Origin: Eledone cirrhosa
Taxonomy: Eukaryota
Assembly: GCA_964016885.1 (NCBI GenBank)
Contig: OZ024744.1
Coordinates: forward strand, 86,676,001 to 86,740,000
Reading direction: 5' to 3'
Length of the DNA: 64,000 nt
The position numbers were made by a program, and so were the translations under genes. Below are positions 3,485-52,990 of the stretch, piece after piece. Position 1 is the first letter of the stretch. Each line of letters opens with the position of its first letter. The notes under the pieces were generated by a model. That model saw only the letters and a list, made by a program, of their open reading frames with translations. It was not told the DNA's origin and ran no database searches.

Positions 3485-3712
3485 ATTGTTATACTTTGGG
3501 AGGGTCATGTTGCCAATAAGAAACACACGCACCAGTTGCTTTCACTTCAATTTATTATATATTTATAAATTTATAAATTTACAAATTTACAAACTTATAA
3601 ATTTCTGGTTGTGTGTTTCTTATTGGCAACATGACCCTCCCAAAGTATAACAATATCGGTTTCAACACACGATTTCAGATAAAGAATCTTGCTAAACAAA
3701 TTCAGAAACGAA
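3485..3712. mobile_element. fold-back Penelope-like pLTR remnant in (TA)n (family A)
   Basis: Arms 'ttgttatactttgggagggtcatgttgccaataagaaacac' and its reverse complement, plus a ~55-bp tail. Homologous to the termini of the Penelope at 20868-23840 and to 39588-40045. Confidence 0.7.
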
Positions 3713-4162
3713 ATATATATATATATATATATATATATATATATATATATATATATATATATATACATACACGAATACGCATATATATATATGTATATTT
3801 TATATATGTATATATATATATACATATATATAAAGTGAGATTATTTGTTGTTACCATTTACTGTATTTCTTTTTGTTGATAAGGAAGAAGTTGAAAGGAA
3901 AGATGTATTCTCGTTGGTTAACATTACTTTAAAATGTCTTCCTTAATGACTTATAGGTTCATCCAAAACTAATAGTAAATTTCTTAATCATAATGTAAAT
4001 TTAGGTTTCTGTAGAAAATTAGAAAAATATCTCAAAATTAAGGTCTGTGTACGGAAAAAGACCAGTATTGTCATAATTGGAATACATTACACAATAAAGC
4101 TGTATGACTTGAATCTAAAGAAAATTAATTACTTATATCACTAGTATTACCAAGAAACATGA

Positions 4163-4365
4163 TAGGCTGATTGGCAGAATCGTTAGAGCGTCGGTCACAA
4201 TTTCGCATGGCATTCAGTTCTGGGGGTCAAGTCAATTCCCATGTTTCCACTTTCCAGATGTCGATAAAATAAAACAACAAACAAACAAACAAACATTTAT
4301 TGAGGTCGACTCATCCCTCTTGTCATAATTGCTGACCTTGTGCCTAATATAGAAATTATTATTAC
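4163..4365 (+). mobile_element. tRNA-derived SINE (family S1)
   Basis: A-box-like 'ggctgattggcagaatcgttag', 'gtcgataaaataaa' core, and 3' end 'ccttgtgcctaatatagaaattattatt'. Confidence 0.5.
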
Positions 4366-5552
4366 CTACAACATAACAAGAACAATAACAAGATGACTTT
4401 ATTCTCCTCCCTCGTCATCGCCCCTAGCAGCAACGACACCACATCACAACTACCATTATCATTTCTACAATTCTATCCGGGTCCCATTGTTCTGTATCAC
4501 CATCAACACCGCTACCACAACTGTCACCACCACCACCACCACCACTACACAATAACCACCAACATGCGGCGAAAGGTTCACTTAATCTTCAACTTCACTC
4601 TCCCCAATACCCACCACCCCTTCCTCTTTTGCTCTCATCTCGCCAATATCGGCATCATCAACCCCATCCTTGTTCTCCCACCAATTTTCTGTTTCGTCGT
4701 GATGACGGTCAACTAAACACGGCAAATCCTTTTCTGCACCTCCATTAGCTGAACAAACTCTGTCCCCTTCTCTCTTCTCTCACCTCAATCTTCTCCCACC
4801 GTTTCTCACCCTCCTTTTCCGTTTGTCTCTCTCTCTCTCTCTCTCTCTCTCTCTCTCTCTCTCTCTCTCTCTCTCTCTCTCTCTCCCTATAATATATATG
4901 GGTGTGTGTGTGTGTGTGTATATATAAGTATATAAATATGTATACATACGTGTACATATATATATGGATGTATACATTCATCATTATCCTCTCCCTTCCA
5001 CCTGCTACTTCACCCATTAAACAAAATTTTACGCTTCACTAAAGATAGCTTTCTTTCTCTATAGTATTTTTTATTTGGTTATGTACTTCTTCAGTTTGTA
5101 GCTGTTTCTTCTTATTTGTTTCCTTGTTTGATTTATTTTTGGTTTTCTTTCGGTACGTTTAGTATACTGTTGATTTTGTTTCCTTTTTTTTCTTACTTGT
5201 ATTTTATTTTGTTTTCGTTCAGCCAGTCAAATGTATTTTAAACTTTTTTACATTGTTTTTTTTTCTTCTTCTTTTTTTTATATATTTGTACTTCCAGCTG
5301 TCTGTTTGACTGTCTGACAGACTGAGAGTCGAGAGTTTACCCCATCTCTCTCTCTCTCTCTCTCTCTCTCTCTCTCTCTCTCTCTCTCTCTCTCTCTCTC
5401 TCTCTCTCTCTCTCTCTCTCTCTATATATATATATATATATATATATATATATATATATTTATTATTATTACTATTTCTATATATATTTATTATTACTAT
5501 ATATATATATATTTATTATTATTACTATATATATATATATATATATATATAT

Positions 5553-5760
5553 AGTAATAATAATAAATTTGAAGACTAAAATCCAAAGAGGGCTCATATC
5601 AAATATATAAGAACCGTAGAGCAAATATTTATTAAACTAACAGATTAAAGTTTAAGCAAAGAATCGCTGCTTTCACCCTTAACGGGATCTTCAGAAGATC
5701 CCGTTAAGGGTGAAAGCAGCGATTCTTTGCTTAAACTTTAATCTGGTATTTTAATAAATA
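5553..5760. mobile_element. fold-back hammerhead-bearing element in (TA)n (family B)
   Basis: Near-perfect palindrome 5626-5760 centred ~5693 plus tail 5553-5625. Other copies at 19638-19799, 40414-40582 and a piece at 44653-44704. Confidence 0.75.
5669..5694 (-). ncRNA. hammerhead ribozyme core (stem I lost at the fold-back junction)
   Basis: Minus strand: CTGAAGA-t-CCC-gttaa-GGG-t-GAAA-gc. Confidence 0.6.
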
Positions 5761-5903
5761 TATATATATATATATATATATATATATATATATATATATA
5801 TATATATATATATATATATATATATATATATATACTTACCTATCTATCTATCTATCTATCTATCTATCTATCTATCTATCTATCTATCTATCTATCTATC
5901 TAT

Positions 5904-50929: not shown

Positions 50930-51990
50930 GTGATGATGATGATGATGCTGATAATGCTGATAATGCTGATGATGTTGATGGCGGTGATGATGATGATGAT
51001 GATGATGATGGTGATGATGGTGATGAGGATGACGATGACGATGATGATGATGCTGATAATGCTGATGATGTTGATGGCGGTGATGGTGATGAGGATGATG
51101 ATGATGATGATGATGATGATGATGATAATGGTGATGATGATGGTGGTGATGATAACGATGATGATGATGATGGTGATGATGGTGGTGGTGATGATGATGG
51201 TGATGATGACGCTGACGATGATGATGATGATAATGGTGATGATGATGGTGATGATAACGATGATGATGATGGTGATGATGGTGGTGGTGATGATGATGAC
51301 GACGCTGACGATGATGATGATGATGATGATGGTGATGACGATGGTGTAGGTGGTGGTGCTGGGAATGGTGGTGATAGTGGTGGTGGTGGTGGTGGTGGTG
51401 GTGATGGTGGTTGTGGTAGTGGTGGTGATGATGGTGGTGGTGGTAGCGACGGTGGTGATAGTGGTGGTGGTGCTGGTGTTGGTGGTGGTGTCGATGGTGG
51501 TGGTGTTGGTGGTGGTGGTGGTGAGCGTGATGGTGGTGATGGTGGTGATAGTGGTGCTGGCGCTGGTGTTGGTGGTGGTGGTGATGGTGATAGCGGTGGT
51601 GGTGATAGTGGCGGTGGTGGTGGTGTTGGTGGTGGTGGTGGTGATGGTGGTGGAGGTGATGGCGGTGATAGTGGTGGTGGTGGTGATGGTGATGGTGCTG
51701 GTGATGGTGATGATAAGTGGTGGTGGTGGTGATGATGGTGGTGATGGTGGTGGTGCTGGTGATGGTGATGATAAGTGGTGGTGGTGATGGTGGTGGTGAT
51801 GGTGGTGGTGCTGGTGATGGTGGTGATAGTGGTGGTGGTGATGGTGGTGGTGATGGTTCTTGTAGTGGTCGTGGGGGGGCTTTGGTCGTGTGTATATGGT
51901 GGTGGTAGTGGTTTTGGTTTTGTTAGTAGTATTGTTGCATGTTGGTAGTCGTGGATGATGATGGTGGCAGTGGTGATGATGGTGTTGGTG
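50930..51990. repeat. (GAT)n grading into (GGT)n low-complexity tract
   Basis: Direct inspection. Confidence 0.9.
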
Positions 51991-52330
51991 GTAGTGACGG
52001 TGGTAATAAAAATAAGAATAAATGTTAGATTAACATAAGTTAGAATGTAGATTACTAGGAACCATCGATTAATCGACTCCTGCAATTGACTGATAAATAT
52101 TGTTTTGGTTTCGAAAAGGTGATTTAAACATACACATAAACACACACACACACACACACACACACACACACGTACGCGAGCGCACGCGCATAAATTATAT
52201 ATATATATTGGGTCGTCAAGTATGAAATGTGTAGAAAAAACATATGACTATATGCCTCACTACAAATTTCAAACTTGACGACCCAATATATATATATATA
52301 TATATATATATATATATATATACAAACACA

Positions 52331-52732
52331 CATGAATGTATGTATAGTATGTTTGGCAATATACTGTATGTTTAATTTTAAAATATTTAGAAAACCATTC
52401 GCTATGAGTTTTAAAGTAGTGACTATGTCACTTACTTATTCTCGGTAAAAACAAAAGAGAGTGATCGACAGACAGTCTGTTTCTCGCTTGTTAGCGTTTA
52501 TCAAGACCACACACTCAGTTGACTTTGCCGAGAATTATAGAGTCTGGATTCTTATAGAATTCTGTCGGCCGCTCTCTGTTGTTTTTGCCGAGATTAAGTA
52601 AGTGATATAGTCACTACTTTAAAACTTTTAGCGAATGGTCTTCTAAATGTTTTTAATTAAGCTTACAGTATTTTGCCAAATATACTATACATGCATTAAT
52701 GTATGCATCGCTATTTCAGACCACCAATACTT
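52331..52732. mobile_element. older fold-back element with ~140-bp arms and a decayed hammerhead at 52461-52510 (minus)
   Basis: Arms ~52331-52471 and 52562-52702. Minus strand: GTGGTC-tTGATaA-a-CGCT-aaca-AGCG-a-GAAA-CAGA-ctg-TCTG-TC-GATCAC. Confidence 0.7.
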
Positions 52733-52800
52733 ATATATATATATATATATATATATATATATATATATATATATATATATATATATATATATATATATAT

Positions 52801-52990
52801 ATAGATGAGATTCTACAGGACTACAACTGTTTCATTCTTTAGAAATCATCAGGAATCCTGATGATTTCTAAAGAATGAAACAGTTCTTGTCCTGTAGAAT
52901 CTCATCTATATTAAAACTTTTATACTCTGCAATGTATTGAGTACCTTACTTACTGTGGTTACCTCCGATTCAACCCGGAATAACGTACCT
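52801..52990. mobile_element. family F palindrome with back-to-back hammerhead cores plus tail
   Basis: Centre 52855; CTGATGA-tTTC-taaa-GAAt-GAAAC at 52858-52881 (+) and 52829-52852 (-). Confidence 0.8.

What the first reader, a model, noticed from the sequence alone, without database searches (positions are those of the whole stretch)
3485..52990. Shared layout: tail-less arm plus inverted arm with a 30-100 bp tail, with fixed endpoints per family
Seen at 3485, 5553, 13341, 20868/23766, 36440, 37155, 39249, 42832, 46176, 52331 and 52801. One arm stops at a defined base while the mirror arm continues into a tail. Endpoints recur across independent copies. Family B tails start 'agtaataataataaatttgaag' (5553, 19638, 40414) and the short arms end 'ttttaataaata' (5760, 19799, 40582). 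Family E behaves the same way (42832/46176 and 44477/46585). The inner junction is variable. This matches the inverted 5' pLTR plus tail described for Penelope. It implies two priming events on opposite strands of a self-complementary (TA)n target (inference).
Basis: partly seen in the sequence, partly recalled or inferred. Interest (0 to 1): 0.75.

Follow-up and report, generated by a model that had tools for sequence, protein, structure and literature searches.

The report
Two-armed Penelope retrotransposon insertions
These lopsided mirror-image repeats, with fixed outer ends inside TA repeats, match the known footprint of Penelope-like retrotransposons, likely copied from RNA into both sides of a cut; one family unexpectedly starts with a tRNA-like head, and one insertion joins two different families.

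Summary
Observation confirmed: all 11 listed sites are head-to-head arms in (TA)n with a one-sided extension of about 22-101 nt. Outer ends recur to the base in families B, E and J and within about 1-4 nt in most A copies, but not across divergent family D; inner junctions differ. One site (20869-23840) carries a Penelope-type RT plus GIY-YIG ORF, and several families carry outward-pointing hammerhead cores. The layout is published (PMC8557442, PMC3846280), as are two RT start sites bounding the tail (PMC11167929), and this scan already reported it elsewhere in this genome (e1-8673709). Two-sided priming is likely but inferred; it is supported by a tail-only arm (19639) and by a junction of two unrelated families (44917-45235). 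New detail: family C begins with a tRNA-like head (Rfam), and public reads show further copies ending there, a candidate tRNA-headed passenger of Penelope enzymes, although a T5-6 run follows the head. Mostly known; interest 0.4.

The parts
3487..3604 (-). Family A, copy A1, tail-less arm
3605..3712 (+). A1 tailed arm; tail 3653-3712 (60 nt), open frame starting with Met 7 codons before the tail-less end
5554..5757 (.). Family B, copy B1: tailed arm 5554-5692 (-), tail 5554-5628; tail-less arm 5694-5757 (+); 1-nt loop at the start of a hammerhead-like core
13344..13502 (.). Family H: 57-nt arms, 3-nt loop, tail 13461-13502; no hammerhead core found
19639..19796 (.). B2: left arm is the tail alone (stops at the internal start site), right arm tail-less; no inverted overlap
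20869..23766 (-). A2 main arm: 5'-truncated, frameshifted Penelope-like ORF (RT 22542-23723, thumb, CX4CxxC linker, GIY-YIG about 21356-21709) and pLTR with hammerhead core at 21103; tail-less end at 20869
23767..23840 (+). A2 inverted arm: 14 nt of pLTR plus 60-nt tail
36438..36615 (.). Family D, D1: tailed left arm, 33-nt tail-less right arm
37156..37572 (.). Family I: 138-nt arms, tail 37479-37572, hammerhead-like core in both arms
39250..39573 (.). Family C, C1: tail-less arm 39250-39365 (-); long arm (+) starting with the tRNA-like head; tail cut about 7 nt short at the join to A3
39362..39433 (+). tRNA-like head of C1 (Rfam tRNA 39.0 bits, gathering 29)
39573..40044 (.). A3: 211-nt arms, 5-nt loop, hammerhead cores at 39718 (-) and 39856 (+); left outer end lost
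40415..40585 (.). B3: long tailed arm, 21-nt tail-less arm
42833..44476 (.). Family E, E1: 551-nt arms 98% alike, 441-nt spacer, tail 42833-42933 (101 nt), hammerhead cores at 43030 (-) and 44380 (+); no ORF recognised
44917..45132 (-). C2: tailed family C arm, tRNA-like head 45065-45136 (31.4 bits)
45133..45235 (+). Family G arm (hammerhead-bearing, related to I), joined head-to-head to C2; end 62 nt after the core, like the tail-less ends of I and E (60 nt)
46177..46584 (.). E2: long tailed arm, 84-nt tail-less arm, 5-nt overlap at the junction (46501-46505)
52323..52731 (.). Family K: old (126 of 145 alike) arms, 22-26-nt tail
52804..52989 (.). D2: 50-nt arms, 3-nt loop at hammerhead core start, 83-nt tail
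54330..55377 (.).

Best explanation
These are head-to-head, one-tailed insertions in (TA)n, one of which encodes a Penelope-type RT and GIY-YIG nuclease; each was likely made when a Penelope enzyme cut the TA repeat and both broken ends primed reverse transcription, one at the RNA's distal start site (tailed arm) and one at an internal site 22-101 nt upstream (tail-less arm). The two cDNAs would run inward, stop at variable points and be joined, which gives fixed outer ends and a variable inner junction. Shown: anatomy, recurring ends, ORF, hammerhead-like cores pointing outward, tRNA-like head. Inferred: both-strand priming, which RNA start is used on which strand, that two RNA molecules can be used, and that non-coding families (B, C, E, G, H, I, K) borrow the enzyme in trans.
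For: PLE ORF with homologue in Octopus vulgaris at 70% identity (RT-thumb-linker-EN order). Ends recur to the base in independent copies while junctions differ. Hammerhead cores point outward in 6 of 29 arms under a strict scan, against 2 inward (one site in family E, with a core mismatch) and 0.3% in shuffles; a looser scan adds E (3 copies), I and M, with aligned cores in G, I, M. B2's tailed arm stops at the internal start site and A2's 14 nt beyond it, with no or almost no overlap: fold-back cannot make these. C2 joins a tailed C arm to an unrelated G arm; reads from three RAD libraries show C and G as separate abundant repeats that part at 45122-45133 (loose ends 469-608 reads per library at 45133). 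In PAc both strands are nicked and extended and RT starts at two sites that bound the tail (PMC11167929, main text parts 1-2 read). 4-5 nt of TA microhomology at the tail-less end in families A, B, D2, H, I.
Against: Rfam found no hammerhead at gathering score and none among the 150 of 327 E-value rows shown; cores are motif calls and none was found in C, H, K or K0. Four insertions are almost perfectly symmetric with 1-5-nt loops (B1, D2, H, A3), which fold-back explains as easily. The C/G join could be a later deletion between two neighbours: such a deletion is visible at C1/A3. The microhomology excess is weak (p 0.009 with random phase, 0.13 with best phase; absent in C, E, K). Only family A has an ORF in the window (no other tblastn match). 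No common hairpin at the tail-less ends. No genome was held, so no genome-wide tally.
Confidence: 0.7

Rival explanations
1. Penelope insertions whose inverted arm arises by self-priming (fold-back) on an antisense template, as proposed for Adineta vaga, from a single priming event at the target.
For: Four near-perfect palindromes with 1-5-nt loops; reads with opposite-strand joints at a 4-nt self-complementary site (45071/45075) in three libraries and three contigs; model stated in PMC3846280 (discussion read).
Against: Does not give arms with no shared sequence (B2), a 14-nt overlap against 2.9 kb (A2), or two families in one insertion (C2/G). Annealing of two cDNA ends at a self-complementary site gives the same joints.
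Confidence: 0.17
2. Both strands prime, but always on one RNA molecule (like L1 twin priming, recalled from memory); cross-family joins are later deletions between neighbouring insertions.
For: B2 and A2 tailed arms stop at or just beyond the internal start site; E1's arms are closer to each other (541 of 550) than to E2 (311 of 328); deletion between neighbours seen at C1/A3.
Against: Overlaps of 50-551 nt need strand displacement or a second RNA; the C2/G join lies at both families' natural inner stops (tRNA 5' end; hammerhead core start). This is a variant of the best explanation, not an alternative origin.
Confidence: 0.1
3. MITEs or other DNA-transposon derivatives inserted at TA.
For: Inverted ends and TA flanks; 52209-52285 is symmetric and may be one.
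Against: One-sided tails, variable inner junctions, RT ORF and hammerhead cores.
Confidence: 0.02
4. Assembly or library fold-back artefacts.
For: Palindromes next to microsatellites are hard to assemble.
Against: Arms differ by 2-13% (541/550, 129/138, 107/118, 126/145); opposite-strand joints of family C occur in independent raw reads and contigs. No long reads across a locus were examined.
Confidence: 0.01

Closest known systems
EN+ Penelope-like elements: inverted 5'-truncated copy plus one-sided tail (Craig et al. 2021, PMC8557442: passages, section 11, supplement look-ups; Arkhipova et al. 2013, PMC3846280: passages and discussion)
   Same: Head-to-head inverted arm, tail at one end only, pLTR hammerhead, (TA)n target; Octopus Naiad and Hydra families with (TA)n preference are already listed in the supplement; pLTR holding the first codons and the tail extending them, as in Pen2a_Av.
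   Different: Tails here reach 75-101 nt (published 30-40); either arm may carry the tail; many families look non-coding; a cross-family join and a tRNA-like head were not seen in the parts I read.
Poseidon of Anolis carolinensis (PAc) in vitro (Frangieh et al. 2024, PMC11167929: parts 1-2 of 4 read)
   Same: Two RT start sites bounding the tail; both strands cut and extended; AT-rich target.
   Different: PAc starts at a site not homologous to the cut DNA and in an AC-rich stem-loop; here 5 families show 4-5 nt TA microhomology (weak statistic) and no shared hairpin. The paper's parts that I read do not derive the inverted arm from two-sided priming.
Animal non-LTR retrozymes (bioRxiv 10.64898/2026.07.22.740005: abstract, introduction, passages; PMC7229834: search listing only)
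   Same: Non-coding hammerhead units related to PLE pLTRs, thought to borrow PLE enzymes.
   Different: Defined by tandem repeats; the copies here are single two-armed insertions. 'tail' and 'tRNA' do not occur in the preprint's main text.
tRNA-derived SINEs (general knowledge, recalled)
   Same: Family C: tRNA-like head with A- and B-box-like motifs at the 5' boundary, short non-coding body.
   Different: No poly(A) or simple-repeat 3' end; two alternative 3' ends 40 nt apart and head-to-head arms as in PLEs; a T5-6 run 9 nt after the head would stop polymerase III.

Membership tests
EN+ Penelope-like element (family A) | PLE-type RT followed by C-terminal GIY-YIG nuclease | tested here: met
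   motifs in order, 33 full-length homologues, one with Pfam GIY-YIG at E 2.5e-4; Pfam itself does not hit the window pieces
EN+ Penelope-like element (family A) | pLTR with hammerhead motif in ORF sense | tested here: met
   (21103, 39718, 39856); motif call only, below Rfam thresholds
EN+ Penelope-like element (family A) | Inverted truncated copy and one-sided tail | tested here: met
EN+ Penelope-like element (family A) | Partial tandem (direct pLTRs) | tested here: not met
   A2 is 5'-truncated and has no upstream direct pLTR; optional feature
Hydra clade (family A) | No CCHH, CxCX5C linker, DKT | tested here: not met
   A2 has CX4CxxC linker, two Cys inside GIY-YIG, DKS against section 11 of PMC8557442
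Nematis or Neptune clade (family A) | CX2-5CxxC linker plus CCHH, C-terminal EN | tested here: inconclusive
   Linker, both Cys and first His present, second His read as Tyr; short linker-to-GIY spacing resembles Nematis rows by eye; no tree built
PLE-mobilised non-coding elements (B, D, E, G, I) | Cognate autonomous partner sharing the pLTR | not testable with these tools
   no genome held; no ORF match in window
Non-LTR retrozyme | Tandem units each with a type I hammerhead | tested here: not met
   no tandem copies at these sites
tRNA-derived SINE (family C) | tRNA-related head | tested here: met
   D-arm in register with bacterial tRNA-Gln/Gly in 6 of 17 pattern matches
tRNA-derived SINE (family C) | Copies begin at the tRNA 5' end | tested here: met
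   C1 and C2 begin within 5 nt of +1; depth falls and 476 loose reads in X17 complete the acceptor stem and go on into inverted-arm-like sequence (number of loci behind them unknown)
tRNA-derived SINE (family C) | No polymerase III terminator inside the body | tested here: not met
   T5 (C1) and T6 (C2) at position 82; about half of reads have one T fewer than C2
tRNA-derived SINE (family C) | Polymerase III transcript; 3' end shared with a partner retrotransposon | not testable with these tools
   no RNA run listed; no partner in window
MITE | Symmetric terminal inverted repeats, fixed interior | tested here: not met

The most novel reading that the evidence does not exclude
Penelope enzymes insert as a two-headed machine that loads two separate RNAs, always pairing one distal start with one internal start even when the RNAs come from different families, and octopus carries a tRNA-headed, ribozyme-less passenger (family C), a SINE-like parasite of Penelope elements rather than of LINEs, whose tRNA fold may set the RNA's 5' end.
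Probability: 0.3. Interest if true: 0.7.

Novelty: new member of a known kind. Interest (0 to 1): 0.4.

Why it matters
The layout is known, but how the inverted arm forms is still open (self-priming proposed in PMC3846280; two-strand extension seen in vitro in PMC11167929). This genome offers many families with base-exact ends, so the question can be tested by counting: tail-only arms and cross-family joins separate two-ended priming from fold-back. A tRNA-headed passenger of Penelope enzymes was not found in my searches (earlier-findings look-ups) and would widen the known SINE partnerships. Practically, such palindromes can be mis-annotated as MITEs or microRNA hairpins (one search lists many sub-threshold microRNA matches).

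Tried and rejected
No genome held. Rfam: no hammerhead at gathering score. Pfam did not identify the PLE pieces. No RNA holder listed. Reads were laid on 44570-45240 only, so family E, A and B ends have no read-level tally; only 24 of 953 loose-end rows were shown. Exact-pattern scans for family C (metagenome, viral) and B (metagenome) found 0 loci. No shared hairpin around tail-less ends in 12 arms. No ORF recognised in E1 or in 36760-37125. Arm-versus-copy comparison in family C does not tell one RNA from two. The parent tRNA of the C head was not identified (ARAGORN's Ser-GGA call is doubtful with a short variable loop). Motif look-up of family A's RT in the PMC8557442 supplement: 0 occurrences. 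Literature searches for a two-primer model returned nothing beyond PMC11167929 by listing; most older Penelope papers (1997-2006, Cervera 2014) are not in the library, and the bioRxiv supplements were not visible. In one search the mapping of A4 and of the J2/J3 short ends was misaligned and I did not use those rows.
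Full report
Setting. The window is repeat-rich animal DNA with many (TA)n runs; the RT at 22542-23723 (-) is 70% identical to an Octopus vulgaris protein, so the host is octopus-like. No whole genome was held.

Observation. Masked self-BLAST and arm-by-arm alignment confirm inverted arms with a one-sided extension at 11 of 11 listed sites. Tails are 60 (3487), 75 (5554), 42 (13344), 60 (23767), about 61 (36438), 94 (37156), at least 33 (39250; 40 by the second copy), 101 (42833), 99 (46177), 22-26 (52323) and 83 nt (52804). 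40415 and 54330-55377 follow the same rule. Exceptions: 52209-52285 is symmetric without a tail, 39573-40044 has lost its left end, 37754-38025 is complex, 19639-19796 has a tail-only arm. Mapping ends on family references: B tails 3 of 3 on one base, B tail-less ends 2 of 3 identical and one within 4 nt; E tails 2 of 2, E tail-less 2 nt apart; J tails 2 of 2; A tails within 1 nt, A tail-less 3 of 4 within about 4 nt and one about 8 nt short. The divergent D copies scatter by 7-16 nt. Inner junctions differ in every copy, so these are independent insertions. Arms differ by 2-13%, and opposite-strand joints of family C occur in raw reads of three libraries and in contigs, so fold-back artefacts are very unlikely.

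What they are. 20869-23766 is a 5'-truncated, frameshifted PLE: RT, thumb, CX4CxxC linker and GIY-YIG, then a pLTR with a hammerhead core at 21103. Its inverted arm is only 14 nt plus the 60-nt tail. The A tail continues an open frame whose Met lies 7 codons before the tail-less end, as described for Pen2a_Av (PMC3846280); that this is the true N-terminus was not shown. By motifs it is not Hydra, Naiad or Penelope/Poseidon and resembles Nematis by eye (no tree). Hammerhead cores point outward: 6 of 29 arms in a strict scan versus 2 inward and 0.3% in shuffles; a looser scan adds E, I and M, and G, I, M align at the core. Rfam reports none, and C, H, K and K0 show none. No other PLE ORF is in the window, so the other families are short truncations or non-coding passengers.

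Mechanism. Outer ends are RNA 3' starts, inner ends are where copying stopped. In PAc the enzyme cuts and extends both strands and starts at two sites that bound the tail (PMC11167929). Applying this: both ends of a cut (TA)n prime, one at the distal and one at the internal site. Three window observations favour it over fold-back. (i) Either arm can be longer: tail-less longer at A1, A2, B2; tailed longer at B3, C1, D1, E2; equal at B1, D2, H, A3; unresolved at E1, I, K. (ii) B2's tailed arm stops at the internal start and shares no sequence with its partner. (iii) 44917-45235 joins a tailed C arm to an arm of unrelated family G: reads show both as separate repeats that part at 45122-45133, and G ends 62 nt after its core, like the tail-less ends of I and E at 60 nt, so the one-tail rule seems kept across families. 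Against: four near-perfect palindromes fit self-priming (PMC3846280), and the C/G join could be a later deletion like the one at C1/A3. TA microhomology of 4-5 nt at the tail-less end in A, B, D2, H and I suggests annealing may help internal priming, but the test is weak (p 0.009 or 0.13 by null). No shared hairpin was found.

Family C. Both copies carry a tRNA-like head above Rfam's gathering score (39.0 and 31.4 bits) and begin within 5 nt of its +1. In public reads depth falls there, and 476 loose reads in X17 complete the acceptor stem and continue into sequence resembling the inverted arm (these may come from few loci, and organism A holds only about half of the sampled words, so it may be a relative). 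Joints at 45054-45075 show short arms stopping near the tRNA's 3' edge. This looks like a tRNA-headed passenger with PLE ends and no ribozyme. However a T5-6 run follows the head, which should stop polymerase III (general knowledge), so read-through or processing of a longer RNA would be needed; SINE membership is not established.

Comparison. The inverted copy with a one-sided 30-40-bp tail and (TA)n bias are published (PMC8557442), including Octopus Naiad and Hydra families. Earlier notes of this scan report the same two-armed reading on other pieces of this genome (e1-8673709); they are not independent evidence. What I did not find in print (library lacks most older Penelope papers) or in scan notes: tails near 100 nt, a cross-family join, a tRNA-headed PLE passenger.

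Verdict. Real, Penelope-made, layout known; two-ended priming likely (0.7); the tRNA-headed family and the chimera are single-window leads. Interest 0.4.

Noticed in passing
39362-39573 and 44917-45136: Family C has a tRNA-like head followed by a T5-6 run, and a conserved 7-bp stem whose 31-nt loop holds the tail-less end.
   Followed up: partly
5694, 19729, 40566, 45133, 52853-52857: Inner stops of several arms lie within about 4 nt of the start of the hammerhead core (families B, D, G); not quantified.
   Followed up: no
44642-44735: A 51-nt piece of the family B tail (44655-44705) sits inside another abundant repeat that ends in a hairpin plus CTAG like a Helitron 3' end (reads; similar end at about 13545-13580).
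   Followed up: no
52209-52285: Symmetric 77-nt inverted element in (TA)n without tail; possible MITE.
   Followed up: partly
37754-38025: Family J copy with a second, tail-to-tail inversion (37953-38025) centred on a hairpin in the tail.
   Followed up: partly
36640-37125: Tailed D arm with no inverted partner; the segment ends in an A run before (TA)n.
   Followed up: partly
16250-18185: Broken ORFs resembling a Helitron Rep/helicase (recalled resemblance; Pfam no hit for the first piece).
   Followed up: no
5905-8630, 26833-29103, 29647-34500, 35352-35861: LINE remnants: L1/Tx1-like pieces and an R4/Dong-like RT (RVT_1, E 3.8e-19 at 27427-28275); clade labels recalled.
   Followed up: no
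20214-20405, 40637-40822; 551-674, 36065-36215, 48642-48829: Two other dispersed repeats that look like ordinary SINEs.
   Followed up: no
56900-64000: Long C/A-rich tandem array with very strong GC skew.
   Followed up: no
18189-18432 and 18823-19058: 244-nt direct repeat, 93% alike.
   Followed up: no
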